DNA of 64,000 nucleotides, from the NCBI GenBank assembly GCA_002502175.1, contig DAPQ01000060.1, forward strand, positions 7,784-71,783, read 5' to 3'. The notes under the pieces are model-generated. The model saw only the letters and a program-made list of their open reading frames with translations, was not told where the DNA came from and ran no database searches. This DNA is from Euryarchaeota archaeon UBA19 (GTDB taxonomy: Archaea; Thermoplasmatota; Poseidoniia; Poseidoniales; Thalassarchaeaceae). Positions within the stretch are counted from its first letter, which is position 1. The number at the start of each line of letters is the position of its first letter. This document shows, one piece after another, positions 10,613 through 64,000 of the stretch. The translations under genes were made by a program, and so were the position numbers.

Positions 10613-12763
10613 TCACAATAATTGAGATTCGTCGTCTTCGTTTGTAGGTTGATTTTGGTTAATTGGTTTAGGATTGGATGTAGGCATCAATGAAATCGCG
10701 AGTAAAACGAAAATAACCATGATTGCATTGCTAGGTTGAACGAGCCAAGAAAGAGGGCTATCCCCGTTAAATGATGATTGTGCAGTAAGTGTAACAGGAA
10801 CTCTTTGTTCTAGTCCAAAGGAGTCGACGAAAACGATTTCACCTTCTGCAATCATACCTGGATTCAATAATCCATCAGGGACTATGTTTAGGACGATTTC
10901 AGGGCATGCTTGTAATTCACCAGCGGTTTGGACTGTGGCTATTCGAGAGAGTGCTCCCTCGACTGCGATAGAGTATGTTCGTGAACCTTCACCCAAGCAA
11001 GATGTGGATAGTTTGAGCTGGGAGTTTTCATCCCAAGGAATAACCGCAGTAAGGTGTTCCGAAGTGATTCTATGACCTATGGAATACCAGTCTAAGTCAA
11101 TTTGCCAATTCTCTTCCCCTTCACAACCAATTGTGCCTCGAAGATATCCTGAACCCTGAGCCATTTGGTTGGCGGTAGCAAGTTCTACTGTAGATTCCCC
11201 TTGCTCAATTGAAACGATTCTTGGAGCGAACCCTTCTGAATTGGTTGAAGTATAGACGTCAATTTCTAATTGACAAGGAGTTTCTGCAAATACTGTGGCA
11301 AAAATTGTTTCTTGTCCGAGAATTTCCAAAGGACCTCTAGGAGGCAATACATCGACAGTCGTAGGATTTTCAGGATAATCGAAATTAATTGTTGTCTCTT
11401 CAGAATTGATACTCTCAATTGTCGCTGTCCATTGTACCAAACGACCTCGACTATCTCGTATTTGCATGCCATTTGCTCCCAATTGATCTCCTTGGGTAAA
11501 AGCGTCCCCGGGTGCGCCACTATCTCGGCCTCGTTGCAAGGCCGCATCGCCATCCGCTTCGAGAATTTTCAGCCACGCCTTTTCCGGGTCCGTGTTGACA
11601 AGGTTGTTACCTTCATCGCCATTATTTTGATCTTGAATTTCGACAATGACTCCATGGCCAGGCAGGGCCGAATCGAATCCCGAATTGACTCTAAGTGTGA
11701 ATCGGACCCATTCATTTGGTGCAATTGGAATTTCAAGGTATGAACCTCCTTGAGATATTCCTTGGATAGTATAATTGGAAAAATTCGGATCTACCTGAAT
11801 ACCTCGCTTGACCCCAATTAGGTCAAGAGTAGAGGAGGAGGGCAGGGCAGGTATTGCACCATTGCCGTTCCAATTACCACTAGCCATTATCCCCCAGTCA
11901 CCAATGCCATTCCAATTACTGGTTGGCAAATCGCTGTGAACATCATACAAATCTAAAGCACCCATTTGGTGTAACATTTCATGCACAACTGTACCTACAC
12001 CAGAATGTACTGAAGCGATTGTGAAGTGTTCAATTCTCCAATCTCCAATTTCTAATGGTTCTTGCATTCCTGTGAAGTGGCTCCAAAGTGAATCAGTGCC
12101 ACCATTCATTTCCTGAGGTTGTGCAGAGTGCAGAATTAGTATTCTGTCGATTACTCCATCCGAGTTCGGGTCCCAATTGGAAAGGTCAATTCCTTGTAGT
12201 TGGTCTGAGGCAACATCACGAAGCAAAGTTTCAGCCCCATTCCCATCTGCACCATGATCTCTCTCTCCGGCAACATCTTCACCCCAATTTTTGACTCCAT
12301 ATGGTGCTTGCCAAACTTCGTCAAATAATGTCACTGATAATGACGAAGACCCAGCAGTCATTTGGTCAATGTATTCCTCAGCAGAACCATCTCCGATTAG
12401 AATATCTGAGGCGGTTGTAGTTGAAAATTGGTCATTCGGAAATTCAACTTGAAGGACTAACCATTGTTCATCAATCTGAACTCCCAATAATGGAAGCCCA
12501 CTATCGTCATCATTGGACACTCGATTGGAGGCCCAATTATCGACCATATCGGAATTAAAATGCACATATATGGCACCTAGCAACAACAAAGCCACTAGCC
12601 CTGCCCTAAGTCCCTTCATACCGATATCGAACATCTCCGTTCCCTTGAAGGGAACGGATTGTTGAATTGTCTTCGCTTCAATTTCAAGGCAATCTACGAT
12701 ATTCTGACGAGTAAAACTGCAAAGATTGTTTTCTCCAGTTTGGTAAATTAGAATTGTCTTCAT
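10613..12763 (-). CDS. secreted zincin metallopeptidase (HExxH) with C-terminal membrane anchor
   Basis: N-terminal signal/TM 'LVALLLLGAIYVHF'. 'VVHEMLHQMGALDLYD' is an HExxH zinc-binding motif. Gly/Asn-rich beta regions. C-terminal hydrophobic helix 'AIMVIFVLLAISLM' followed by an acidic tail. Confidence 0.55.
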   Translation of the reverse strand: MKTILIYQTGENNLCSFTRQNIVDCLEIEAKTIQQSVPFKGTEMFDIGMKGLRAGLVALLLLGAIYVHFNSDMVDNWASNRVSNDDDSGLPLLGVQIDEQWLVLQVEFPNDQFSTTTASDILIGDGSAEEYIDQMTAGSSSLSVTLFDEVWQAPYGVKNWGEDVAGERDHGADGNGAETLLRDVASDQLQGIDLSNWDPNSDGVIDRILILHSAQPQEMNGGTDSLWSHFTGMQEPLEIGDWRIEHFTIASVHSGVGTVVHEMLHQMGALDLYDVHSDLPTSNWNGIGDWGIMASGNWNGNGAIPALPSSSTLDLIGVKRGIQVDPNFSNYTIQGISQGGSYLEIPIAPNEWVRFTLRVNSGFDSALPGHGVIVEIQDQNNGDEGNNLVNTDPEKAWLKILEADGDAALQRGRDSGAPGDAFTQGDQLGANGMQIRDSRGRLVQWTATIESINSEETTINFDYPENPTTVDVLPPRGPLEILGQETIFATVFAETPCQLEIDVYTSTNSEGFAPRIVSIEQGESTVELATANQMAQGSGYLRGTIGCEGEENWQIDLDWYSIGHRITSEHLTAVIPWDENSQLKLSTSCLGEGSRTYSIAVEGALSRIATVQTAGELQACPEIVLNIVPDGLLNPGMIAEGEIVFVDSFGLEQRVPVTLTAQSSFNGDSPLSWLVQPSNAIMVIFVLLAISLMPTSNPKPINQNQPTNEDDESQLL

Positions 12764-13790
12764 CTAACCAATTTAGTCCGTCTAATTCAGTTTGATTGGA
12801 TTCAATGTAAGAGCGAATATCGATTGGTAAAGGATATCCATTACATCCAGTGATAGTCAAGCGAGTGAGTGAATTGCGTTGCACCATTTCTCTCAATGCC
12901 AATTGTTCATTTTCGTCCAAACATAGCGCACTTGGTCGTAGAATTGGTATTTTTTGGTGCAACCAATTTTCCTTAAATGACGGGCAAGCCCCATCACATG
13001 AACAGTCAACTAAAGCTATTTTTTGAATAGTACCATCTTTGTTGACAAACTGGGTAAATTCTGGATTACGCGGTCCCAATGGACCTTTTGGCACTGTTCT
13101 AGATATTACCTCAGCAGTTACCAATACTAATATTGCAATCAAAATTCTAAGTCCCTCGAAAATTTCTGGTAGGGTCAAAATTAGCAAACCACCGACAATA
13201 GCAAAGACTCGGTTTCTAAATCTACTCCGGCCTTCTTCAACCAAACCAAATAATCTTGAGAGGGAAAGGAATAGTGTAGAAGTAAATGTAAGAATTAAGA
13301 TCCAAGAAATACCACTAGCCAAAGAAAATAACTCTGATGCGTCATATCTCGGAGTGACTGAAGAAATAGAGTCTAGTTGAATACCTGCTTCGATGTAATA
13401 AGGAATCATACTAAACCATACCCAATACAAAATGCTCGGAACAATTATTGCATTCAAAATCAAGTATGTATCTAGCCACCTCTTCTCATTAGGTAGAAGT
13501 CCTGCATTGGCGAAAAATCTCAAATCGAGAGAAAAAAATGGAAGTGAAATGACAGATGCAATAATGATTACAGCCATGAATCTCATTTCTATCCAATCAT
13601 AAGGACCATAGACAGATAGAGCGCCTGAGGGTGACTGAGAAAGGCTCCAATTATTGAGGATTGTTTCGACCCAAATTGTTGTTACTGCAGAAGCAATAAG
13701 AAATACAAACGCACTCCTTCGGATTAAAGAGTGTAAATCTTCCAAATGGCTAGTGACCGGTTTACGGTCTACTAGACTACTGTTTGACAT
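12684..13790 (-). CDS. tatC: TatC-like Sec-independent translocase subunit with ~110-aa Cys-rich C-terminal extension
   Basis: N-terminal 'SHLEDLHSLIRRSAF' resembles the TatC start motif (HLxELRxRL). 'NAGLLPNEKRW' is the conserved TatC loop motif. There are six predicted TM helices. The C-terminal extension carries 'CSCDGACPSF' and 'TGCNGYP'. Confidence 0.45.
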   Translation of the reverse strand: MSNSSLVDRKPVTSHLEDLHSLIRRSAFVFLIASAVTTIWVETILNNWSLSQSPSGALSVYGPYDWIEMRFMAVIIIASVISLPFFSLDLRFFANAGLLPNEKRWLDTYLILNAIIVPSILYWVWFSMIPYYIEAGIQLDSISSVTPRYDASELFSLASGISWILILTFTSTLFLSLSRLFGLVEEGRSRFRNRVFAIVGGLLILTLPEIFEGLRILIAILVLVTAEVISRTVPKGPLGPRNPEFTQFVNKDGTIQKIALVDCSCDGACPSFKENWLHQKIPILRPSALCLDENEQLALREMVQRNSLTRLTITGCNGYPLPIDIRSYIESNQTELDGLNWLDEDNSNLPNWRKQSLQFYSSEYRRLP

Positions 13791-13791
13791 T

Positions 13792-14823
13792 TTACATCAC
13801 ATCGTGGACGGTTGGCTCTGCTTTAGCCGAACGTACAGTTCGATACACCCCATATGAGGCCCAAGCGGCTATGAACCAAGCACATCCAATAACGAAGTCA
13901 TGTTGACCGCCGTTGGCAGACCAGTCGACTGCAAAGAAGAAGGCAATGACTGCAACTAGTCCACGCCTGACACCTTGTGGATAGGCCAATTCCATGGCTA
14001 AGTATTCCGGACCTGGGCCATGGCGTCTTTCGAGGATTTCCCGTTGGAACACGGCGCCTACGATTAGGGCGGTAAGGGAAGTCCAGTAAAACAGGTTACC
14101 ACTTTCAAATACTCTATCGGAAAGGTTCTTTTGTCGTTCTTTTTCTTTTTCAGCCTCACTTTCTTCAAGGACGAAGAGTGTTTGGTAATCACCAACAGCA
14201 ATTGTTCGAGTTTGCAAGGTTGCATCACCATCTCCCGCTGCAATAGTACCTGGTGGATTAATCGAAAAAGTCAGAACATTCCAGTAATCATACTCATTTG
14301 GAATCCCGTCTCCATTAACTGAATTTCCGGCTATACTGAAGAGTATTGTATCTGAATCAGATGATGGTGCGGTCCAAGTGATGGTCCAAACTCCATCACT
14401 GGTTTCTGAATGTGATATAGCATTTTCATCTCCATCAGCTTCTCTAATCTCTTGTGAATCATCCCAAGAGAAAGTCCCAGCGCCATTATCTGTTAGGAGG
14501 AATCCAGCTTTGGTGTTACCGTCCGCTCCAGCCAGAGTTACAGAATCAGCCACTGTGATTACAAACTCGTACGACTGATCTGATTCGTACATAACTGGGA
14601 CTCCTGAGACCATAACAACGGCTCTGTCACCCGGACTGGAATAATGACAAGTACACCCGTATTTGGCAGTCTCTTGATTATCTGAATTAAGATATGGTGG
14701 GCCACCGCTGTTGGCGAATGCTGGGATTGCTAGTAATCCTACTAGGCATAGAGCAACAACGAGCTTTGTTGGACGCACCATCATCAAGACCTCCTGTTTT
14801 CGTTGCGACCTCGTCAAACACAT
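13792..14823 (-). CDS. exported protein of a 'GCTCH...GNSVNGDGIP' family (paralog of 62236-63054), C-terminal TM anchor
   Basis: Signal peptide 'LVVALCLVGLLAIPAFANS'. Shared blocks with the 62236 ORF: 'YGCTCHYSSPGD', 'WTITWTAP', 'GNSVNGDGIPNEYDYWN'. Hydrophobic helices near the C-terminus. Confidence 0.4.
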   Translation of the reverse strand: MCLTRSQRKQEVLMMVRPTKLVVALCLVGLLAIPAFANSGGPPYLNSDNQETAKYGCTCHYSSPGDRAVVMVSGVPVMYESDQSYEFVITVADSVTLAGADGNTKAGFLLTDNGAGTFSWDDSQEIREADGDENAISHSETSDGVWTITWTAPSSDSDTILFSIAGNSVNGDGIPNEYDYWNVLTFSINPPGTIAAGDGDATLQTRTIAVGDYQTLFVLEESEAEKEKERQKNLSDRVFESGNLFYWTSLTALIVGAVFQREILERRHGPGPEYLAMELAYPQGVRRGLVAVIAFFFAVDWSANGGQHDFVIGCAWFIAAWASYGVYRTVRSAKAEPTVHDVM

Positions 14824-14863: not shown

Positions 14864-16294
14864 CTACAACTCCTTTACTGCGGCATTGAGTTCGTTCATC
14901 ATCTTCTTTCCATCACCGAATAGCATCATGGTTTTATCCATGTAAAATAAATCATTGTCTACTCCGGCATAGCCAACTGACAAACTTCTCTTGATGATTA
15001 CAACTGTTCGGGCCATGTCTGCGTCGATGATTGGCATTCCAGCGAGTGGACCTTCTTTTGTTCTAGCGGCAGGGTTACAGGTATCATTTGCTCCGATAAT
15101 TAGGGCTATATCTGCCTCTGGCATCTCAGGATTAATTTCATCCATTTCGATTAATTGATCGTAGGGGACATTAGCCTCGGCCAGTAGGACATTCATGTGG
15201 CCAGGCATTCTGCCTGCAACTGGATGGATTGCATACTTCACCTCGGTGTCAAATTTCTCTGATACTAAGTCTGCAAATTCCTTGACTTGGTGTTGACATT
15301 GGCTTACAGCCATACCATATCCAGGTACTATGATTACCTTCTGAGCACCATCAACCATCATCGCGACTTCGTCTGCGTCGCTTCCGACCTTTGTGCGAGT
15401 TAACTGTTCTTTATCAGACCCGCCAAACGCCTTGAAAAGAACATCAATTAGTTCTCTGTTCATGGCTTTACACATAATGAATGTTAGAATCAAACCACTG
15501 GCACCAACTAAGGAACCAGCGACTATCAAAACACTGTTAGAGATAATGAATCCAGTAAATGCTGCAGCAATACCAGATAGGGAATTTAGCAAGGATACGA
15601 CGACCGGCATATCCGCGCCACCGATAGGCAATACCAACAATATACCGAGTAGACATGAAATTCCAATTATCGCAAATAGGTAATTGGTCTCAGTAGGTTC
15701 TTGGATTGACATATAGATTAGAACTAATGTGCTGAGGAATAACAAAGCCTTGACGGGATTTAACCAAGACGGACCCCAGGTAGGTGTGCGAATCCATTTA
15801 CCAAATAATTCCACGCCACCCTTGAGTTTTAGCATAGCGAGTAAAGACCCGGTTAGCGTCATCCAACCAACCAATGCTGAAAGTCCGGCTGCGACTACCA
15901 TGACTTCTAGTTCGAGACCTGTAGGAATTTCTAGTGTATCATCCTCGATGTATTTCCAGGATTCTGACAGAGCCACCAAGGCTGATGCTGCACCACCAAA
16001 TCCATTGAACAAAGCGACCATTTCAGGCATCCCTGTCATCTCGACGCGGACAGCCATAACCCAACCGATTAAACCGCCTAGAAGTAATCCGCTTCCAATC
16101 AAAATCCAACCTTCAATACCATCTCCTAGTTCCATTTGTAGTACTGTTGTGAGAACCGCTACAAGCATCCCCATTGCGCCTAATTGATTTCCTCGAGGAG
16201 CTGTTCTAGGGTGGGATAATCTCTTCAAGCCGAAGATGAATAGAGTCGCCGAGAGCAGGTATCCAAGGCCAACCCATTGATCATCGATCATCAT
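14864..16294 (-). CDS. pntB: NAD(P) transhydrogenase subunit beta
   Basis: Multi-TM N-terminal half. C-terminal NADP(H)-binding domain 'VIIVPGYGMAVSQCQHQV...HPVAGRMPGHMNVLLAEANVPYD'. Confidence 0.8.
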   Translation of the reverse strand: MMIDDQWVGLGYLLSATLFIFGLKRLSHPRTAPRGNQLGAMGMLVAVLTTVLQMELGDGIEGWILIGSGLLLGGLIGWVMAVRVEMTGMPEMVALFNGFGGAASALVALSESWKYIEDDTLEIPTGLELEVMVVAAGLSALVGWMTLTGSLLAMLKLKGGVELFGKWIRTPTWGPSWLNPVKALLFLSTLVLIYMSIQEPTETNYLFAIIGISCLLGILLVLPIGGADMPVVVSLLNSLSGIAAAFTGFIISNSVLIVAGSLVGASGLILTFIMCKAMNRELIDVLFKAFGGSDKEQLTRTKVGSDADEVAMMVDGAQKVIIVPGYGMAVSQCQHQVKEFADLVSEKFDTEVKYAIHPVAGRMPGHMNVLLAEANVPYDQLIEMDEINPEMPEADIALIIGANDTCNPAARTKEGPLAGMPIIDADMARTVVIIKRSLSVGYAGVDNDLFYMDKTMMLFGDGKKMMNELNAAVKEL

Positions 16295-16602
16295 TGACCA
16301 CCCCTTTTCTTTCCAGCTATCATATTCAACATTCGATTAGTTACTGCGAATCCTCCAACTACGTTGATCATCGCGAGTACTAATGCTATGAAGGCAAGGA
16401 TTCCACTGACTACTGTGTCGCCACCTTCGTAGGCGACATTCGCCCCTAACAGAGCACCAACTATACTGATTCCAGAAATAGCATTAGCTCCACTCATTAG
16501 TGGGGTATGAAGAGTGGCGGGGACTTTGGTGATAAGTTCGAATCCTAAGAAAATAGACATTACAAAAAGCGTTACTGAACCAATTAAAACCGTAGGCTCC
16601 AT
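16291..16602 (-). CDS. pntAB: NAD(P) transhydrogenase alpha subunit, membrane part (PntAB)
   Basis: 103-aa three-TM protein. Its start and end overlap pntAA and pntB by 1 and 4 nt, the canonical pntAA-pntAB-pntB order. Confidence 0.7.
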   Translation of the reverse strand: MEPTVLIGSVTLFVMSIFLGFELITKVPATLHTPLMSGANAISGISIVGALLGANVAYEGGDTVVSGILAFIALVLAMINVVGGFAVTNRMLNMIAGKKRGGQ

Positions 16603-17798
16603 TACAACACACCTCCTAGTTTGCTCTGTTTAGGATGTATTTTTCCATCTGAACATATCAAAACCCCTCCCATTCCAGGGACGTAGAAATCATCTCCTTC
16701 AGGAGCACCTACTAATACATCGTCTTCATCTGAAATTACTAACTCGCCATCAATAAATATCGATGTAATGAAAGTGGTAAGGTTGTTTGAATACAACATG
16801 GAGGCTGTGTTTGCCAACGTGCCTGGGAGATTTCTCACTCCGATTATTGTTACACCGTTTTCTGTGACAACTGTTTCACCCGCAACTGTATCTTCACAAT
16901 TCCCTCCGACATCAGCATTCATGTCAACAATAACAGCACCGGACTTGAATGATTCAACAGCACTACTCGGTACTGTGATAGGTGCTGGCCTTCCAAAAAT
17001 TCTGGCAGTGGTTACAATGATGTCGGCATCGGAAGCGACTCCGCAAACTGTGTCATTGACTTTCTGAATGAACTCCGGAGTGAGTGGTTTTGCATAACCA
17101 GCTTCATCTTCGAAATCATCCATACCATCAACCTCAATGAATCTCCCCCCAACAGACTCTATCTGTTCTGCGGCTGACTTCCTCACATCGGAAGCATAGA
17201 CAATTGCGCCAAGTCTCTTTGCGGTTGCAATGGCTTGTAAACCAGCAACGCCACTACCCATAATCACAACTTTCGCTGGCCTCACAGTTCCTGCAGAAGT
17301 GGTCATCATCGGGATTCCCTTTGGTACTGAGGCGGCGCCCAAGAGTACCGCTTTGTATCCTGCCAGATTGTCTTGACTTGAATTTACATCCATGGATTGT
17401 GCTCTTGACAACCTTCGAGGAATCATATCCATCGACAGAAGGGTGATTCCTGCATCCAAGCAAGCCTGAACTTTTTCAGGATGACGAAACGGATCGGCCA
17501 CGCAAGCGATGACCTGACCCGCATGAAGTTCAGAGACATCTGGTAAGTGAACGGAAATAATTAGCGGAGATTTTAGGACTTCAAGTCTGTTTGAGATAAT
17601 TGCTCCGTTTTCTTCGTATTCGGAATCATAATGATTTGCGGAAATGCCAGCATTAGATTCCACCACTACTTCAAACCCAGACTTACTTAATTTACGAAGC
17701 GATTTCGGCACGATTGCAACCCTTGTTTCGCCTTCAGGTTCCTTCAACACACCTAGTCTCATACAAGTCCCTCGGTTCCTAATGAGCCATAGGCTCAT
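16602..17798 (-). CDS. pntAA: NAD(P) transhydrogenase alpha subunit, NAD(H)-binding part (PntAA)
   Basis: Alanine-dehydrogenase-like fold. 'MRLGVLKEPEGETRVAIVP' start; the likely true start is the internal Met. Rossmann motif 'KVVIMGSGVAGLQA'. Confidence 0.8.
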   Translation of the reverse strand: MSLWLIRNRGTCMRLGVLKEPEGETRVAIVPKSLRKLSKSGFEVVVESNAGISANHYDSEYEENGAIISNRLEVLKSPLIISVHLPDVSELHAGQVIACVADPFRHPEKVQACLDAGITLLSMDMIPRRLSRAQSMDVNSSQDNLAGYKAVLLGAASVPKGIPMMTTSAGTVRPAKVVIMGSGVAGLQAIATAKRLGAIVYASDVRKSAAEQIESVGGRFIEVDGMDDFEDEAGYAKPLTPEFIQKVNDTVCGVASDADIIVTTARIFGRPAPITVPSSAVESFKSGAVIVDMNADVGGNCEDTVAGETVVTENGVTIIGVRNLPGTLANTASMLYSNNLTTFITSIFIDGELVISDEDDVLVGAPEGDDFYVPGMGGVLICSDGKIHPKQSKLGGVL

Positions 17799-59094: not shown

Positions 59095-60465
59095 ATGGGC
59101 ACTAGTGAAATATCCAGAGAGGTCGAATACTCCTCTTCAGATCATTCCAAGGTTCATGATTTCAAGATAAACGATAAGAATTCTATCAAGTTGATTGTGC
59201 CGCCTACTGTTTACCCACCCAGAAGAGACACTAAACTGTTGCTTAAGGGGCTGGAACGCATTAATTTGCAACCAGGAAATTTGGTCGAGATTGGATGTGG
59301 TTCAGGGGCAATTTCAATTGCCAAGGCTCTGGAAGGCTGGAATGTAACCGCCTTTGATGTAAATCCACTGGCCGTAGTTGCAACAAAAGGAAACTCGGAA
59401 GTTGCAAAAGTGAACGATAGAGTCACAGTAGAAGAGGGAGGCGTTGGGGAAGAACATTGGAAGTTACCCGATAATGCGGACTTAGTCGTATGGAATTTAC
59501 CATACCTAACCCCGGATTTAGAAAATATACTTGGGCCAATGGAAGAAGCGGCTTTAACCGATGAGAGAATTACAGGTTGGTCTGAACAATTACTCGAGCT
59601 AGCAAATGAAGAAAGTCAAAATGGAACGATATTTGTGCTTCTAATAAACTCTGATTCGAATCCAAAAAATTCACCATTAACATGGATAAGGAAAGGCTGG
59701 TCAAAAAGGTCTTTGGCAGTCGAAAGAGTTGGAGACGATACCCTAGAAGTTATAGCATTCTGGAGACCTGGGTTTGGTTCAGAACCCATCTACCTAGAAA
59801 TGACAAATTCGACCATGGATGAGGCACGAAATTTACCTAATTTTGGGTGGCAGAGAATTCGTTCTGGAGAACAGATTAGCGGGAGAGGAAGGAAAGGGGC
59901 AATTTGGCATTCAAATCAAGGTGACATGATAGCCTCTTGGAGCGTTAAATTAGAGGAATTAAATCAATTGAATCCGGGGCTATTACAAGTATCAATAGGA
60001 GCATCAATTTGTGAAGCATTAGGAGTCCAAATGAAATGGCCAAATGACTTGATTTGGCAGGGTAGAAAATGCGGCGGAATTTTACTTGAATCTAGCACAT
60101 ATGATGGAACAATTAGGATCGGTGTTGGATTAAACAAGAATGGGGGAGAAATAGAAGGTTTTTCCTATTCTGGATGGACTGAATATTTCGGGGAGATTGA
60201 CTCTAACGAGATGTTTCAAATTATTGATGCCGCAATAGGATCAATTTTGGATTCTACACCGCCAATAGATTCTATTGAAAATACATTATGGCAACAGAAA
60301 TCTTGGGCCCAATTATGTGACATTCTATCCACAGGCGTGGTAGCCAAATTTGAGGGAAGGGAAGTAAATATTGTTGGCCTTTCTAATGCTGGCAGTTTGA
60401 GAGCATATTCAGATAGTTCGGAATACGAAATATCTGATATTGATGACTTTTCCATTACTTTCTAG
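59095..60465 (+). CDS. fusion protein: N-terminal HemK/PrmC-like class I methyltransferase + C-terminal biotin--protein ligase (BirA catalytic domain)
   Basis: MTase: 'VPPTVYPPRRDTKLL', motif I 'VEIGCGSGAISIA', motif IV 'VVWNLPYL' (NPPY variant). BPL: 'GRGRKGAIWHSNQGDMIASWSV' and 'KWPNDLIWQGRKCGGILLE'. GGTGA Shine-Dalgarno-like sequence 6 nt upstream. Confidence 0.65.
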   Translation: MGTSEISREVEYSSSDHSKVHDFKINDKNSIKLIVPPTVYPPRRDTKLLLKGLERINLQPGNLVEIGCGSGAISIAKALEGWNVTAFDVNPLAVVATKGNSEVAKVNDRVTVEEGGVGEEHWKLPDNADLVVWNLPYLTPDLENILGPMEEAALTDERITGWSEQLLELANEESQNGTIFVLLINSDSNPKNSPLTWIRKGWSKRSLAVERVGDDTLEVIAFWRPGFGSEPIYLEMTNSTMDEARNLPNFGWQRIRSGEQISGRGRKGAIWHSNQGDMIASWSVKLEELNQLNPGLLQVSIGASICEALGVQMKWPNDLIWQGRKCGGILLESSTYDGTIRIGVGLNKNGGEIEGFSYSGWTEYFGEIDSNEMFQIIDAAIGSILDSTPPIDSIENTLWQQKSWAQLCDILSTGVVAKFEGREVNIVGLSNAGSLRAYSDSSEYEISDIDDFSITF

Positions 60466-62235: not shown

Positions 62236-63054
62236 ATGATGAGAGTGCATCTACCGACCTTTCATCGGCTTGTAGTTCTAGGCTGTTTCGCCATATTATT
62301 GGCTGGTTCAACACAAGGATATTCAAATGGAATCGGTGGAGATGAAAATGGTGACGGGGATGTGGCTCTTGCAGGTTGTACTTGCCACAATGAATTACCT
62401 GACAACTCAGTGACTGTAATCTTAGATGGACTCCCATATCACTATTCAGCAGAGACAACTTACACACTTACCATTCAATTAATCGGAGGCCCTGATATTG
62501 ATTCTACTTCCAACACTGGTGGGTTCGCCATGAGAGTGAGCGGAGGTTTGCTAGCCGCAGCTGAAGGGTTTGAAACTCAAGTCCAAAATTGGGAAGAAGA
62601 TGGAGCAAGCTTAACCCATACTGGTTCCGGTGCTGCAACCTCAGATAGAACTTGGATGATAACTTGGACCGCCCCCCAAACAGGTGCTGGCCCTGTCACC
62701 ATTTGGTTGGTAGGAAACTCTGTCAATGGCGACGGAATCCCAAGTGAACTCGATAGATGGAATCGGCTTTCAGTGTCTCTAGAGGAAGGAGAAGATGCAG
62801 GAGATACAAGAACCGTTTTCAGTGGTAATGGTGAGATAGAGCCTCCGGCACCAGTAGAAACACATGTCGATCTTCACCACATGGGCGCTAAGCTACGAGC
62901 ACACTGGCTAGGTCTGCTTGGGTTTGCAGCCGTTATTCTAGTCATACTATTCTGCGGATTCTTCCTAAGATATGGATTCTCGAGACATTACGTCGGAAGA
63001 AGTAATTTGCTAAAGTTACGAATCAAGCACCTACGCCGAGGTGATCAACTATGA
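62236..63054 (+). CDS. exported protein of the 'GCTCH...GNSVNGDGIP' family (paralog of 13792-14823), C-terminal TM anchor
   Basis: Signal 'LVVLGCFAILLAGSTQG'. 'AGCTCHNELPDN', 'WMITWTAP', 'GNSVNGDGIPSELDRWN'. C-terminal helix 'LGLLGFAAVILVILFCGFFL'. Confidence 0.4.
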   Translation: MMRVHLPTFHRLVVLGCFAILLAGSTQGYSNGIGGDENGDGDVALAGCTCHNELPDNSVTVILDGLPYHYSAETTYTLTIQLIGGPDIDSTSNTGGFAMRVSGGLLAAAEGFETQVQNWEEDGASLTHTGSGAATSDRTWMITWTAPQTGAGPVTIWLVGNSVNGDGIPSELDRWNRLSVSLEEGEDAGDTRTVFSGNGEIEPPAPVETHVDLHHMGAKLRAHWLGLLGFAAVILVILFCGFFLRYGFSRHYVGRSNLLKLRIKHLRRGDQL

Positions 63055-63500
63055 GAGACGATGTTGTGATGAAACTTCTGCGTGAAGTTAAGGCAGGCAA
63101 AGTCAGTGTAGAGGACGCCCGCGATGCACTGTCTGAAGTTGAGTTAAGTGAGGATGCTTACCAGAACGCTGTAGACCAAGGGGTATTCAATGACCCAGAA
63201 CCAGGGACGATTATTCGTGCCAGTATTTCACCTTCTAGTGATTCTTGGCTTGTCATCATATTTGCTATGTGGGGAATTCTATGGACTCTATATTGGGCCG
63301 GAACGCTTTCCTATGGTCTCTACAATCATTGGGATCAGCAGCGACTATCCTTCCATCTTGCGATGACTCTACTCACAGTGATTTTGATGGGTATAGTTTA
63401 CTTGAGATTTGTAATGCCTGATGTAATTATTGTCAAGCATAGAAGAAACAAATACATTACTTCAAACGACTCGGATGGGTGGAAGCAATATGAGGTGTGA
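63051..63500 (+). CDS. membrane protein (2 TM), hypothetical; 4-nt overlap with upstream gene
   Basis: Helices 'WLVIIFAMWGILWTLYWAG' and 'LAMTLLTVILMGIVYL'. Confidence 0.35.
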   Translation: MRDDVVMKLLREVKAGKVSVEDARDALSEVELSEDAYQNAVDQGVFNDPEPGTIIRASISPSSDSWLVIIFAMWGILWTLYWAGTLSYGLYNHWDQQRLSFHLAMTLLTVILMGIVYLRFVMPDVIIVKHRRNKYITSNDSDGWKQYEV

Positions 63501-64000
63501 ATGATGGCGCGAAGATTTCGACTAAGGCCCCTTCCCAGTGACGATGAAAACTGGTGGGAAGATTCGAATCCTGCTATTGACCGAAGGGAGTTTATGCGCC
63601 ACTCATTCAATACAGCGGCCGGAGTCATCACCATGGCTAGCCTTGGTAGTATCGGGTTTGCTTCACTGCTAATGGGTACTGCCGATTCTTCCGGAGGAGA
63701 TTCCGCTGTCAGATTCTGGGTTCCTACCGGTGCAGAAGATTCTGCTTGGTATGGAGATAGGCATCTTGAACCTATGAACTACTCTGCTTTTGTTGATGCG
63801 GCTGCAAACAGTGGCACAGGTATGTCCGGAGCGCAAGGTGTATGGTCAGGGATGCCAGTGAACGTGGTTTACGTCCCGCACGAAGAAAATGTCTCCAAGG
63901 CCGCTACTACAAACGTTCCAAGGTTCCAATTCATGGATGGCTACAATGAGAGTGGGAAATATATTGGAAGTGGATATGAACTAGAAGAGAATCCAGATTA
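63501..64000 (+). CDS. Tat-signal-bearing exported protein (partial, runs off window end)
   Basis: Twin-arginine motif 'DRREFMRHSF' followed by the hydrophobic h-region 'TAAGVITMASLGSIGFASLLMG'. Confidence 0.4.
   Translation, partial: MMARRFRLRPLPSDDENWWEDSNPAIDRREFMRHSFNTAAGVITMASLGSIGFASLLMGTADSSGGDSAVRFWVPTGAEDSAWYGDRHLEPMNYSAFVDAAANSGTGMSGAQGVWSGMPVNVVYVPHEENVSKAATTNVPRFQFMDGYNESGKYIGSGYELEENPD

What the first reader, a model, noticed from the sequence alone, without database searches (positions are those of the whole stretch)
13792..14823. Paralogous exported 'GCTCH ... WxITWTAP ... GNSVNGDGIP' protein family, copy 1, in operon with a TatC-like gene
This ORF and 62236-63054 share colinear conserved blocks and an identical architecture: signal peptide, beta-rich domain, C-terminal TM anchor. 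The N-terminal Cys-x-Cys-His cluster right after the signal peptide suggests a metal or redox site. Copy 1 ends 1 nt before the TatC-like gene. Copy 2 is followed by a 2-TM protein and a Tat-signal protein. The repeated linkage to Tat components suggests an exported redox or metal-handling module.
Basis: partly seen in the sequence, partly recalled or inferred. Interest (0 to 1): 0.55.

Follow-up and report, generated by a model that had tools for sequence, protein, structure and literature searches.

The report
Reeler-like proteins tied to archaeal respiration
Two membrane-anchored surface proteins of a Marine Group II archaeon belong to a catalogued but uncharacterised Reeler-like family with a near-invariant Cys-x-Cys-His motif; one heads the Rieske/cytochrome b operon and a third relative elsewhere is fused to cytochrome oxidase subunit I, so the family may be the missing electron-transfer link in this abundant ocean archaeon's respiratory chain.

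Summary
ORFs 13792-14823(-) and 62236-63054(+) are paralogs (BLASTP E=3e-24). Each has a Sec-type signal peptide, a beta-sandwich domain and C-terminal membrane helices. Their GC(T/S)CH motif is kept in 125-127 of 127 diverse relatives. Both score above the curated cut-off of NCBIfam NF041895 (choice-of-anchor V). That domain is a prokaryotic branch of the Reeler fold: the top Foldseek hits are all F-spondin reeler, and there are weak Pfam Reeler matches. It is not a cupredoxin, CopC, YcnI, DOMON or cytochrome fold.

The "repeated Tat linkage" is only superficially shared. Copy 1 is always followed by a divergent TatC (24/24 Poseidoniales loci). The "Tat-signal protein" after copy 2 is the Rieske subunit of a Rieske/cytochrome b operon that copy 2 heads (28/28 loci). 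The family proteins themselves have no conserved twin-arginine.

In 24 of 25 Poseidoniales cox loci, a third paralog is fused in frame to cytochrome oxidase subunit I.

Best reading (about 0.5): an extracytoplasmic cofactor-bearing domain that relays electrons at complexes III and IV. The cofactor is unknown. I lean to copper over an unusual haem site, on weak indirect grounds. The family is known; the respiratory role appears to be new and is untested.

The parts
13792..14823 (-). Copy 1 (CAV1): signal peptide, choice-of-anchor V / Reeler-like domain, and a C-terminal helical membrane region. The likely true start is Met14 at 14784, giving 330 aa.
   Evidence: ORF. NF041895 scores 71.9 bits against a cut-off of 42. 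Orthologs of 329-375 aa start at MMVR. AlphaFold model has pLDDT 76.6.
14245..14712 (-). Reeler-like beta-sandwich domain of copy 1 (about residues 25-180 of the 330-aa form).
   Evidence: Strands in the model. Pfam Reeler E=8.2e-4, 20.4 bits, just under the gathering score of 21. Foldseek top hit is 2zot, F-spondin reeler.
14644..14658 (-). G-C-T-C-H motif of copy 1 (Cys57, Cys59, His60 in the 343-aa numbering).
   Evidence: Invariant in 17 and 48 Poseidoniales sequences. C20 is kept in 125/127, C22 in 127/127 and H23 in 127/127 diverse members.
13822..14157 (-). Long amphipathic helix plus three predicted C-terminal helices of copy 1 (membrane region, conserved ELAYPQ segment).
   Evidence: Helices 210-255, 264-291 and 296-321 in the model. 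Conserved among orthologs. Hydropathy is only moderate.
12684..13790 (-). Divergent TatC homolog with a C-terminal extension of about 140 aa that carries four conserved Cys. It starts 1 nt after the copy 1 stop codon.
   Evidence: Pfam TatC E=4.5e-13, 49.9 bits. It falls below the NCBIfam TatC equivalog cut-offs. It lies downstream of CAV1 in 24/24 loci. Conserved E102 and C263, C265, C290, C316.
14864..17798 (-). pntAA-pntAB-pntB (proton-translocating transhydrogenase). This is the conserved upstream neighbour of copy 1.
   Evidence: Pfam annotations of orthologous loci. PntB lies upstream in 21/21 loci.
10613..12763 (-). M6 (InhA-like) metallopeptidase with a C-terminal TM helix. This is the conserved downstream neighbour of the TatC homolog.
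   Evidence: Pfam Peptidase_M6 E=6.1e-10. Synteny.
62236..63054 (+). Copy 2 (CAV2): signal peptide, Reeler-like domain, one TM helix and a conserved basic tail. It is the first gene of the Rieske/cytochrome b operon.
   Evidence: NF041895 scores 94.2 bits. The domain model has pLDDT 88.4 and pTM 0.86. The top 7 Foldseek hits are F-spondin reeler, E down to 7.5e-7. Operon context.
62374..62388 (+). G-C-T-C-H motif of copy 2 (Cys48, Cys50, His51).
62890..62985 (+). C-terminal TM anchor of copy 2, followed by the conserved tail RYGFSRHY.GRSNLL.LR.KHL.RGDQL.
   Evidence: Hydropathy segment 219-250. Tail conservation.
63051..63500 (+). 149-aa protein with two TM helices, overlapping copy 2 by 4 nt. 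It is a constant second gene of the operon.
   Evidence: ORF. TM segments 65-86 and 98-129. Weak match to DUF7318, 25 bits against a cut-off of 27. Present in 32/32 CAV2 loci.
63501..64000 (+). N-terminal part of a divergent Rieske iron-sulfur protein with a twin-arginine signal (IDRREFMRHS). It is cut by the end of the window.
   Evidence: Translation. The full-length ortholog has the cluster boxes CTHLCC and CICHSS. It hits bc1 iron-sulfur subunits in the PDB at E=0.0015. Present in 28/28 loci.

Best explanation
Both ORFs encode Sec-exported, membrane-anchored proteins. Their ectodomain is the 'choice-of-anchor V' domain, a prokaryotic member of the Reeler beta-sandwich superfamily.

I propose that the near-invariant Cys-x-Cys-His, together with a conserved mid-domain His, binds a redox cofactor that is loaded outside the cell. 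I lean to copper over an unusual haem site, but only on weak indirect grounds. In Poseidoniales (Marine Group II archaea) the domain would then serve as a fixed electron relay on the outer face of the respiratory chain.

- Copy 2 would be a subunit of the Rieske/cytochrome b complex, standing where cytochrome c1 stands in bc1 complexes.
- A third paralog, fused to the N-terminus of cytochrome oxidase subunit I, would sit next to the CuA domain.
- Copy 1 is a further paralog with a three-helix membrane module. It is co-transcribed with a divergent TatC, and its partner is unknown.

Shown here: paralogy, family membership, fold, motif conservation, operon structure and the CoxI fusion. Inferred: cofactor binding, electron transfer and the cofactor's identity.
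For: 1. Family and fold.
- NF041895 scores 71.9 and 94.2 bits against a cut-off of 42.
- All top Foldseek hits are F-spondin reeler, E=7.5e-7 to 2.4e-5, TM 0.48-0.60.
- The family profile hits Spondin-1 in the PDB at E=0.0019.
- Pfam Reeler matches 13 of 28 diverse members, best E=7e-6.

2. Candidate ligands.
- C20 125/127, C22 127/127, H23 127/127, H101 119/127 (Gln in the other 8), N130 120/127, D142 127/127.
- 136 of the 149 best representatives have CxCH. The few spacing variants (one CxxCH, four Cx4CH) keep the Cys-His pair.
- The family has 2965 representative clusters at 50% identity.

3. Copy 2 context.
- Gene order is CAV2, 2-TM protein, Rieske (Tat signal), cytochrome b, PDWY/Fer4/CCG protein, ferredoxin, with overlapping or abutting genes.
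- The 2-TM gene follows in 32/32 loci and Rieske in 28/28, down to 48% identity and in both families of the order.

4. CoxI fusion.
- cox2, then CAV fused in frame to cox1, in 24 of 25 loci.
- Examples are single ORFs of 791 and 728 aa. Pfam COX1 covers residues 235-663 at E=1.4e-141.
- One TM helix between the domain and CoxI puts the domain outside, on the side of CuA. The CoxII proteins keep the CuA motif.

5. Rare fusions to other electron-transfer modules.
- A plastocyanin/azurin domain (P0255).
- A DUF4079 membrane domain with a weak cytochrome b561 match (P0348).

6. Literature.
- MGII have cytochrome b and Rieske but no canonical bc1, so no c1 is known (PMC6336850).
- Eukaryotic Reeler domains sit on the outer end of DOMON-cytochrome b561 ferric reductases, and their function is unknown (PMC10691727).

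7. Export route.
- The signal peptides lack a conserved RR, so a cofactor must be inserted outside. This fits Cu or haem but not Fe-S.
Against: - No cofactor has been shown for any member of this family or for any Reeler domain. To my knowledge the solved F-spondin reeler domain binds none.
- Most family members are stand-alone surface proteins with sorting-signal anchors (T9SS tail, PGF-CTERM-like). They are often joined to Ig-like spacer domains. Their neighbourhoods are uninformative: OsmC/FtsZ, ribosomal S24e/S27ae, glutamine synthetase.
- The redox fusions are singletons among 149 representatives.
- The synteny counts all come from one archaeal order in which gene order is conserved generally, so they are not independent events.
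- Thalassarchaeaceae also express halocyanin strongly (PMC9723583). A copper carrier therefore already exists.
- The two Cys could simply form a disulfide.
- I could not read the model coordinates, so I did not check whether the Cys/His residues cluster.
- Copy 1 itself has no respiratory neighbour apart from pntAB.
Confidence: 0.5

Rival explanations
1. The domain is a structural or tethering module with no cofactor. It acts as an adhesion-type beta-sandwich, as Reeler domains are usually described. It would hold respiratory complexes together (homotypic CAV-CAV contacts between complexes III and IV), dock halocyanin, or attach the complexes to the cell envelope. The Cys pair would be a structural disulfide.
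For: - The closest solved structures are the F-spondin reeler domain and then pilins, cohesins and Ig domains.
- Family members are frequently fused to fn3, PKD, CARDB and Big domains and carry surface sorting signals.
- Most members are stand-alone surface proteins.
- Halocyanin is available as the electron carrier.
Against: - A purely structural role does not easily explain the near-absolute conservation of C-x-C-H plus a distant His across bacteria and archaea at about 25-35% overall identity.
- A Cys-x-Cys disulfide is strained and rare as a structural element (my own knowledge).
- Placement at the head of the Rieske/cytochrome b operon, plus fusion to CoxI, is the pattern otherwise seen for cytochrome c domains.
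Confidence: 0.25
2. The domain is a metallochaperone, for example a Cu(I) carrier working like Cox11, Sco or PCuAC. It would deliver copper to CuA/CuB or scavenge metal at the cell surface, rather than carry electrons.
For: - Cys-x-Cys plus His on an Ig-like sandwich anchored on the outer face resembles Cox11, which has a CFCF motif on an Ig-like fold (my own knowledge).
- The domain is fused to the CuB-bearing subunit I.
- There is a weak structural match to copper-bound YcnI, rank 37, E=4.6e-3.
- The widespread stand-alone surface copies would fit metal capture.
Against: - A copper chaperone has no obvious job in a Rieske/cytochrome b operon, which needs no copper. Yet copy 2 is invariably its first gene.
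- There are no Pfam, NCBIfam or PDB sequence matches to Cox11, Sco, PCuAC, CopC or YcnI. CopC appears only at E=0.12.
Confidence: 0.12
3. One reading: the family is a Tat-associated exported module. Its function would be tied to the twin-arginine pathway, either as Tat cargo or as a Tat accessory.
For: - Copy 1 is followed at 1-6 nt by a TatC homolog in 24/24 loci.
- Copy 2 lies two genes upstream of a Tat substrate.
Against: - Neither orthogroup has a conserved twin-arginine.
- The Tat substrate near copy 2 is the Rieske protein, a classic Tat cargo in its own right, so that link is explained by the respiratory operon.
- The CoxI-fused and stand-alone paralogs have no Tat neighbour.
- None of the 53 other-type loci contains the TatC homolog.
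Confidence: 0.05

Closest known systems
NCBIfam NF041895, choice-of-anchor V domain-containing protein (and NF041894, MXAN_6652 family)
   Same: Both window proteins score above the curated cut-off over the whole 150-position model. They share the layout of signal peptide, domain and alternative C-terminal anchor.
   Different: The family is catalogued only as a domain of unknown function, and I found no paper on it. The window proteins use plain TM anchors rather than sortase-type signals. In copy 1 the anchor is a three-helix module.
Reeler domain (Pfam PF02014; F-spondin structures 2ZOT, 2ZOU, 3COO)
   Same: Same beta-sandwich fold (best Foldseek matches). There is weak but consistent sequence similarity through the Y.PG..Y..T, GF and W.AP strands.
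   Different: The window proteins are prokaryotic. Their N-terminal G-C-x-C-H segment lies upstream of the stretch that aligns to F-spondin (profile positions 30-121). Copy 1 scores just under the Pfam gathering threshold. No cofactor or respiratory role is known for Reeler domains.
Cytochrome c1 of bc1 complexes, and archaeal stand-ins for it (Sulfolobus CbsA cytochrome b558/566; sulfocyanin SoxE)
   Same: Works-like comparison only. All are extracytoplasmic domains with a signal peptide and a C-terminal TM anchor, encoded in one operon with Rieske and cytochrome b. MGII lack any recognised c1 (PMC6336850).
   Different: No CXXCH motif, no all-alpha cytochrome c fold, no DOMON or cupredoxin fold. 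Cofactor binding is not shown. The CbsA/SoxE comparison rests on my own knowledge.
Cytochrome c domain fused to subunits of caa3-type haem-copper oxidases
   Same: An extra extracytoplasmic domain is fused to a core oxidase subunit in a cox2-cox1 operon that has an intact CuA site.
   Different: Here the fusion is to the N-terminus of subunit I through an added TM helix. The domain is a Reeler-like sandwich, not a cytochrome c.
Eukaryotic CYBDOM ferric reductases (SDR2/FRRS1, Drosophila CG8399): Reeler + DOMON + cytochrome b561
   Same: A Reeler-superfamily domain sits at the outer end of a membrane electron-transfer chain. One prokaryotic member (P0348) is fused to a DUF4079 membrane domain with a weak cytochrome b561 match.
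   Different: The partners differ (cytochrome b561/DOMON versus Rieske/cytochrome b and CoxI). The role of the eukaryotic Reeler domain is itself unknown (PMC10691727).
TatC (Pfam PF00902), for the gene downstream of copy 1
   Same: Matches almost the whole Pfam model (positions 1-188 of 208). It has multiple TM segments and a conserved Glu in the first cytoplasmic loop region.
   Different: It falls far below the NCBIfam TatC equivalog cut-offs (26.1 vs 132.7; 18.5 vs 192.6). It carries a C-terminal extension of about 140 aa with four conserved Cys and no database match.

Membership tests
NCBIfam NF041895 choice-of-anchor V | HMM score at or above the curated cut-off (42 bits) over the full domain | tested here: met
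   Copy 1 scores 71.9 bits (model positions 2-148 of 150). Copy 2 scores 94.2 bits (positions 2-147 of 150).
NCBIfam NF041895 choice-of-anchor V | N-terminal signal peptide and a C-terminal membrane or sorting anchor | tested here: met
   Hydrophobic N-termini, and C-terminal TM helices in both proteins. Relatives carry PGF-CTERM-like tails or T9SS tails.
Reeler domain (Pfam PF02014) | Pfam HMM score at or above the gathering threshold (21 bits) | tested here: inconclusive
   The full-length proteins give no hit at E<=1. The copy 1 domain alone gives 20.4 bits, E=8.2e-4. Thirteen of 28 diverse relatives match, best E=7e-6.
Reeler domain (Pfam PF02014) | Reeler beta-sandwich fold | tested here: met
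   The top 7 PDB matches of the copy 2 domain model (pLDDT 88.4) are all F-spondin reeler, E=7.5e-7 to 2.4e-5. The same top hit is found for copy 1. The family profile hits Spondin-1 at E=0.0019.
c-type cytochrome (cytochrome c1-like) | CXXCH haem-attachment motif | tested here: not met
   The motif is C-x-C-H in both copies and in 136/149 representatives. Only one representative has CxxCH.
c-type cytochrome (cytochrome c1-like) | Cytochrome c fold or family match | tested here: not met
   The models are all-beta sandwiches. No cytochrome family appears in Pfam, NCBIfam or PDB searches.
c-type cytochrome (cytochrome c1-like) | Presence of a cytochrome c maturation system (Ccm or Ccs) in the genome | not tested
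   Only the 64-kb window and 8-13 kb loci were available. A whole-genome census is needed.
Cupredoxin / blue copper protein (halocyanin, sulfocyanin) | Cupredoxin family match and a C-terminal Cys...His...Met ligand loop | tested here: not met
   No Copper-bind hit in either copy. No cupredoxin among the top 50 structural matches. The conserved Cys residues are N-terminal and no Met is conserved.
DOMON / EB_dh haem-b domains (CbsA-like) | Family match or fold match | tested here: not met
   No Pfam hit. No DOMON-type structure among the top matches.
CopC / YcnI (DUF1775) copper-binding sandwiches | Family match or fold match | tested here: not met
   CopC appears only at E=0.12, 13.8 bits against a cut-off of 23.3. 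YcnI is at rank 37, E=4.6e-3, TM 0.36.
Tat substrates (applied to the family proteins themselves) | Conserved twin-arginine motif in the signal peptide | tested here: not met
   Copy 1 (MMVRPTK..) and copy 2 (MMRVHLPTFHR..) have no RR. RR is not conserved among the orthologs of either.
TatC (neighbour of copy 1) | Pfam TatC score at or above the gathering threshold | tested here: met
   49.9 bits against 25.1, residues 14-202 on model positions 1-188 of 208.
TatC (neighbour of copy 1) | NCBIfam equivalog cut-off (TIGR00945 or TIGR01912) | tested here: not met
   26.1 against 132.7, and 18.5 against 192.6. It is a very divergent TatC. Whether it works as the cell's translocase is open.
Rieske iron-sulfur subunit (gene after the 2-TM protein) | Cluster-binding boxes C-x-H-x-x-C and C-x-C-H, plus a Tat signal | tested here: met
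   The ortholog in L004 has CTHLCC and CICHSS aligned to the boxes of bc1 iron-sulfur subunits (PDB 8smr_C, E=0.0015). The window holds only the N-terminal part with the RR signal. There is no Pfam hit even at E<=10.

The most novel reading that the evidence does not exclude
The prokaryotic Reeler-like (choice-of-anchor V) domain is a new class of extracytoplasmic redox-cofactor domain. Its Cys-x-Cys-His/His site would hold either copper or a non-canonically attached haem.

In Marine Group II archaea it would replace cytochrome c1 and cytochrome c. One copy would sit on the Rieske/cytochrome b complex and one would be fused to oxidase subunit I, forming a hard-wired electron path from complex III to complex IV.

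If so, it would also suggest a function for the unexplained Reeler domain of eukaryotic DOMON-cytochrome b561 ferric reductases. It might bear on the 'haloarchaea paradox' as well: covalently bound haem is seen in archaeal bc complexes, yet no CXXCH candidate exists (PMC4429474).
Probability: 0.35. Interest if true: 0.85.

Novelty: new variant of a known kind. Interest (0 to 1): 0.62.

Why it matters
Poseidoniales are among the most abundant archaea in the surface ocean and none has been cultured. [quoted passage not shown] How electrons pass from quinol to oxygen is therefore incompletely known.

This family is the first gene of the Rieske/cytochrome b operon in all 28 loci that could be scored, and it is fused to oxidase subunit I in 24 of 25 cox loci. 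That makes it a concrete, testable candidate for the missing link.

If the Cys-x-Cys-His site holds a cofactor, a widespread domain of unknown function would gain a biochemical role. The family has about 3000 clusters at 50% identity in bacteria and archaea, plus the eukaryotic Reeler domains.

If it holds none, the result is still useful. It would define a conserved accessory module of archaeal respiratory complexes, and it shows that the apparent Tat linkage is incidental.

Tried and rejected
- Pfam on the full-length proteins gave no hit. PDB sequence searches with copy 1 and with the MGII-only profile gave nothing meaningful.
- The search for related loci on genome contigs with the diverse alignments A4 and A5 failed, because no stretch was conserved enough. 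I replaced it with a degenerate DNA pattern for W.AP...N.VNG(D/N)...D.WN.
- tblastn of a PGF-CTERM-type member against plasmids gave no match.
- Literature searches for 'choice-of-anchor' (no paper on type V), for 'CXCH' with haem, and for 'reeler domain' with bacteria and haem found nothing relevant.
- I considered a Rieske-like or mitoNEET-like [2Fe-2S] site on Cys2His2. I rejected it as unlikely because the proteins use Sec-type signal peptides and one paralog is co-translationally inserted with CoxI, so a cytoplasmically assembled cluster could not be carried out.
- I considered that copy 1's C-terminal region might be TatA/TatB-like. I rejected this because the order of amphipathic helix and TM helix is reversed. 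No TatA motif was found anywhere in the window.
- The C-terminal Cys-rich extension of the TatC homolog has no Pfam match.
- I could not read the coordinates of the predicted models, so the spatial clustering of the conserved Cys/His residues remains unchecked.
Full report
**1. The observation**

The window (43% GC) comes from a Marine Group II archaeon. Homologs are named Candidatus Thalassarchaeaceae or Thalassarchaeum, in the order Poseidoniales.

- Copy 1 is ORF 13792-14823(-), 343 aa as listed. Orthologs begin at Met14, so the likely start is 14784 (330 aa).
- Copy 2 is ORF 62236-63054(+), 272 aa.
- They align colinearly with BLASTP E=3e-24 and 32% identity over 200 residues.
- A family profile finds no further copy in the six-frame translation of the window.
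- Each copy has its own orthogroup across Poseidoniales: 277 and 386 database clusters.
- Twenty-four alignment columns are invariant in a 17-sequence alignment of the two orthogroups, among them G-C-x-C-H, a later His, W...W.AP, GN.V and D.WN.
- Copy 1's stop codon is 1 nt from the start of ORF 12684-13790(-), which matches Pfam TatC above threshold.
- Copy 2 overlaps a 149-aa protein with two TM helices by 4 nt. The next ORF starts directly after that protein's stop and opens with a twin-arginine signal.

The one correction is that copy 1 has a long helix plus three C-terminal helices rather than one anchor.

**2. What the domain is**

Pfam finds nothing in the full-length proteins. NCBIfam NF041895, 'choice-of-anchor V domain-containing protein', matches both over its whole length at 71.9 and 94.2 bits, against a cut-off of 42. 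One ortholog already carries that name in NCBI.

A profile search of 1.84 billion representative proteins finds 2965 clusters at E<=0.001. Most are about 200-230 aa: signal peptide, domain, anchor. Many tails look like PGF-CTERM signals, and some bacterial members carry T9SS tails.

AlphaFold models show a beta-sandwich. The full-length copy 1 model has pLDDT 76.6. The copy 2 domain model has pLDDT 88.4 and pTM 0.86.

- Foldseek against the PDB puts the F-spondin reeler domain first for copy 1.
- For copy 2, F-spondin reeler takes ranks 1-7 (E=7.5e-7 to 2.4e-5, TM 0.48-0.60). Generic Ig-like folds follow.
- Sequence evidence agrees. A diverse family profile hits Spondin-1 at E=0.0019. Pfam Reeler matches 13 of 28 diverse members (best E=7e-6) and the isolated copy 1 domain at 20.4 bits, just under the gathering score of 21.
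CopC appears at E=0.12. YcnI is at structural rank 37. No cupredoxin, DOMON or cytochrome match appears.

**3. The Cys-x-Cys-His motif**

In 127 domain sequences of about 25-40% mutual identity:

| Position (copy 1 domain numbering) | Conservation |
|---|---|
| First Cys (C20) | 125/127 |
| Second Cys (C22) | 127/127 |
| Adjacent His (H23) | 127/127 |
| Mid-domain His (H101) | 119/127, Gln in the other 8 |
| N130 | 120/127 |
| D142 | 127/127 |
| W144 | 124/127 |

Of the 149 best representatives, 136 have C-x-C-H. Four have C-x4-C-H and one has C-x-x-C-H. The 8 with no such motif appear to be fragments, judging by their length and where they match the profile. The domain contains no other Cys.

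Neither orthogroup has a conserved twin-arginine, so export is by Sec. Any cofactor must then be loaded outside the cell. This allows copper or haem and makes an iron-sulfur cluster unlikely.

**4. Gene context of copy 2**

Orthologs at 64-66% identity lie in this order:

1. CAV2.
2. The 149-aa 2-TM protein.
3. A protein of about 283 aa with an RR signal.
4. Cytochrome b (PF00033/PF13631).
5. A 931-940 aa protein.
6. A ferredoxin.

The RR protein has the Rieske boxes CTHLCC and CICHSS. It hits bc1 iron-sulfur subunits in the PDB at E=0.0015 with both boxes aligned, although Pfam misses it.

The 931-aa protein starts with a membrane part containing 'PDWYVLFSYGYLR'. By my knowledge this is the Qo-site PEWY/PDWY motif of the cytochrome b C-terminal half, or subunit IV. 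It continues into Fer4 and CCG domains.

So the 'Tat-signal protein' is the Rieske subunit, and copy 2 is the first gene of a complex III-like operon. Tully (2019) notes that MGII have cytochrome b and Rieske but lack canonical bc1 (PMC6336850).

**5. Census**

A degenerate DNA pattern for the domain's C-terminal motifs recovered 119 loci from species-representative genomes, almost all Poseidoniales. I scored them with tblastn.

| Locus type | Number | Neighbours (where the contig allows) |
|---|---|---|
| CAV2-type (48-90% identity, both families of the order) | 35 | 2-TM gene in 32/32; Rieske in 28/28 |
| CAV1-type (37-95% identity) | 26 | TatC homolog downstream in 24/24; PntB upstream in 21/21; usually an M6 peptidase after TatC |
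| Other | 53 | None of these partners. Twenty-five (24 of these plus L135, fetched separately) have cox2, then CAV, then cox1 on one strand |

In 24 of those 25 cox loci, the CAV domain and CoxI share one uninterrupted reading frame.

- L024 (Thalassarchaeum sp.) encodes a 791-aa protein: signal peptide, CAV domain (GCNCH...SHT...WTAP...NSVNGN...DEWN), one TM helix, then CoxI. Pfam COX1 covers residues 235-663 at E=1.4e-141.
- L030 encodes a 728-aa equivalent.
- The neighbouring CoxII proteins keep the CuA motif C.E.CG..H..M.
- The single extra TM helix places the CAV domain outside, on the side of CuA and of the Rieske head.

A fourth group (P0408-like, 223 aa) stands alone next to OsmC and FtsZ.

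**6. Other contexts**

- A Bacteroidia member with a T9SS tail stands alone.
- In another archaeal lineage the gene follows ribosomal S24e/S27ae.
- Among the 149 representatives, the extra domains are mostly Ig-like spacers. One protein carries a plastocyanin/azurin domain. One carries a DUF4079 membrane domain with a weak cytochrome b561 match.
- In eukaryotes, Reeler domains cap DOMON-cytochrome b561 ferric reductases, and their function is unknown (PMC10691727).

**7. Interpretation**

The domain recurs on the outer face of complex III (operon) and complex IV (fusion) in an organism with no recognised cytochrome c1. It also has near-invariant Cys/His residues. This is the pattern otherwise shown by cytochrome c domains.

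I therefore favour a cofactor-bearing electron-relay role (about 0.5). The path would be Rieske to CAV2 to the CAV domain on CoxI to CuA, possibly together with halocyanin. Thalassarchaeaceae express halocyanin strongly (PMC9723583).

The cofactor is not identified.

- I lean to copper, on weak grounds. It is loaded outside the cell, as CuA is. The H101-to-Gln substitution in 8 of 127 members fits a metal ligand: by my knowledge, Gln is an axial ligand in some blue copper proteins but is not a usual haem ligand. By my knowledge, other archaea also use copper proteins in place of cytochrome c.
- The constant Cys-His pair with variable spacing to the first Cys also follows the logic of haem c sites. 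Kletzin et al. proposed that haloarchaeal bc complexes use a non-standard haem c motif (PMC4429474). I could not sample haloarchaea.

Rival readings:
- A cofactor-free tether or docking module (0.25).
- A copper chaperone (0.12).
- A Tat-specific module (0.05).

**8. Copy 1 and TatC**

The neighbour is a real but very divergent TatC homolog. Pfam gives 49.9 bits, while the NCBIfam equivalogs are far below cut-off. It has a conserved loop Glu and a C-terminal extension with four conserved Cys. That extension has no database match.

The adjacency is invariant in the order, but I cannot explain it. Copy 1 is not a Tat substrate. No TatA motif occurs in the window. Whether a canonical TatC exists elsewhere in these genomes was not tested.

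The 'repeated Tat linkage' is thus one true adjacency (copy 1) plus one incidental one (copy 2, through the Rieske protein).

**9. Limits**

- All synteny counts come from one order with generally conserved gene order. They show stability, not independent origin. The CoxI fusion is the strongest single item.
- No cofactor is demonstrated.
- The genome scan was truncated and biased towards Poseidoniales.

**10. Verdict**

The proteins are members of a catalogued family (choice-of-anchor V, Reeler superfamily) of unknown function. Their integration into respiratory complexes III and IV of Marine Group II archaea appears to be undescribed and gives a testable hypothesis. Interest is 0.62.

Noticed in passing
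L024:3686-6061 (+); L030:3561-5747 (+); 24 of 25 cox loci among L020-L135: Cytochrome oxidase subunit I of Poseidoniales carries an N-terminal signal peptide, a choice-of-anchor V/Reeler-like domain with the CxCH motif, and one extra TM helix, all in one reading frame. It lies directly after cox2.
   Followed up: yes
L004:9003-11798 (+), L012:8682-11504 (+); just beyond the right end of the window: The gene after cytochrome b encodes a protein of about 930 aa. Its N-terminus looks like the cytochrome b C-terminal half or subunit IV (PDWYVLFSYGYLR). This is fused to a large middle region, a 2x[4Fe-4S] ferredoxin domain and two CCG (HdrD/GlpC-like) domains. This is an unusual complex III architecture.
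   Followed up: partly
window 12684-13118 (-): The TatC homolog has a C-terminal, presumably cytoplasmic, extension of about 140 aa with four Cys conserved across Poseidoniales (C263, C265, C290, C316). It has no Pfam match. It is a possible Zn or Fe-S site on a translocase subunit.
   Followed up: partly
window 12684-12763: The listed start of the M6 peptidase ORF (12763) overlaps the end of the TatC homolog by 80 nt. In orthologous loci the two genes do not overlap, so the true peptidase start is probably a downstream Met.
   Followed up: no
L135:2500-2520: In this metagenome contig the CAV::cox1 reading frame is interrupted by a single in-frame stop codon (..IRWQ*FEP..) inside the first CoxI helices. 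This is likely a sequencing error. The contig end also carries adapter-derived sequence.
   Followed up: partly
L030:5734-7323 (+): Directly after the cox1 fusion gene lies a 529-aa protein with an N-terminal plastocyanin-like type 1 copper motif (C.VPGH....M). The following region looks like a multicopper or nitrite-reductase-type domain.
   Followed up: no
L010:5397-6651, L136:232-1143, L137:3777-5240: In a different archaeal lineage (members with TM/RRR or PGF-CTERM-like tails), the family gene is consistently placed right after the ribosomal protein genes S24e and S27ae.
   Followed up: no
window 63051-63500 (+): The constant 2-TM partner of copy 2 gives a sub-threshold match to Pfam DUF7318 (25.0 bits against a cut-off of 27). 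The ortholog in L004 gives 23.4 bits. I do not know what DUF7318 proteins sit next to in other archaea.
   Followed up: no
window 59095-60465 (+): A 456-aa ORF whose orthologs carry methyltransferase domains (L004-L006) or a biotin/lipoate protein ligase domain with a faint PrmA match (L012), suggesting a methyltransferase-ligase fusion. It lies between the rpoH-rpoB block and the FtsZ-like gene, upstream of copy 2.
   Followed up: no
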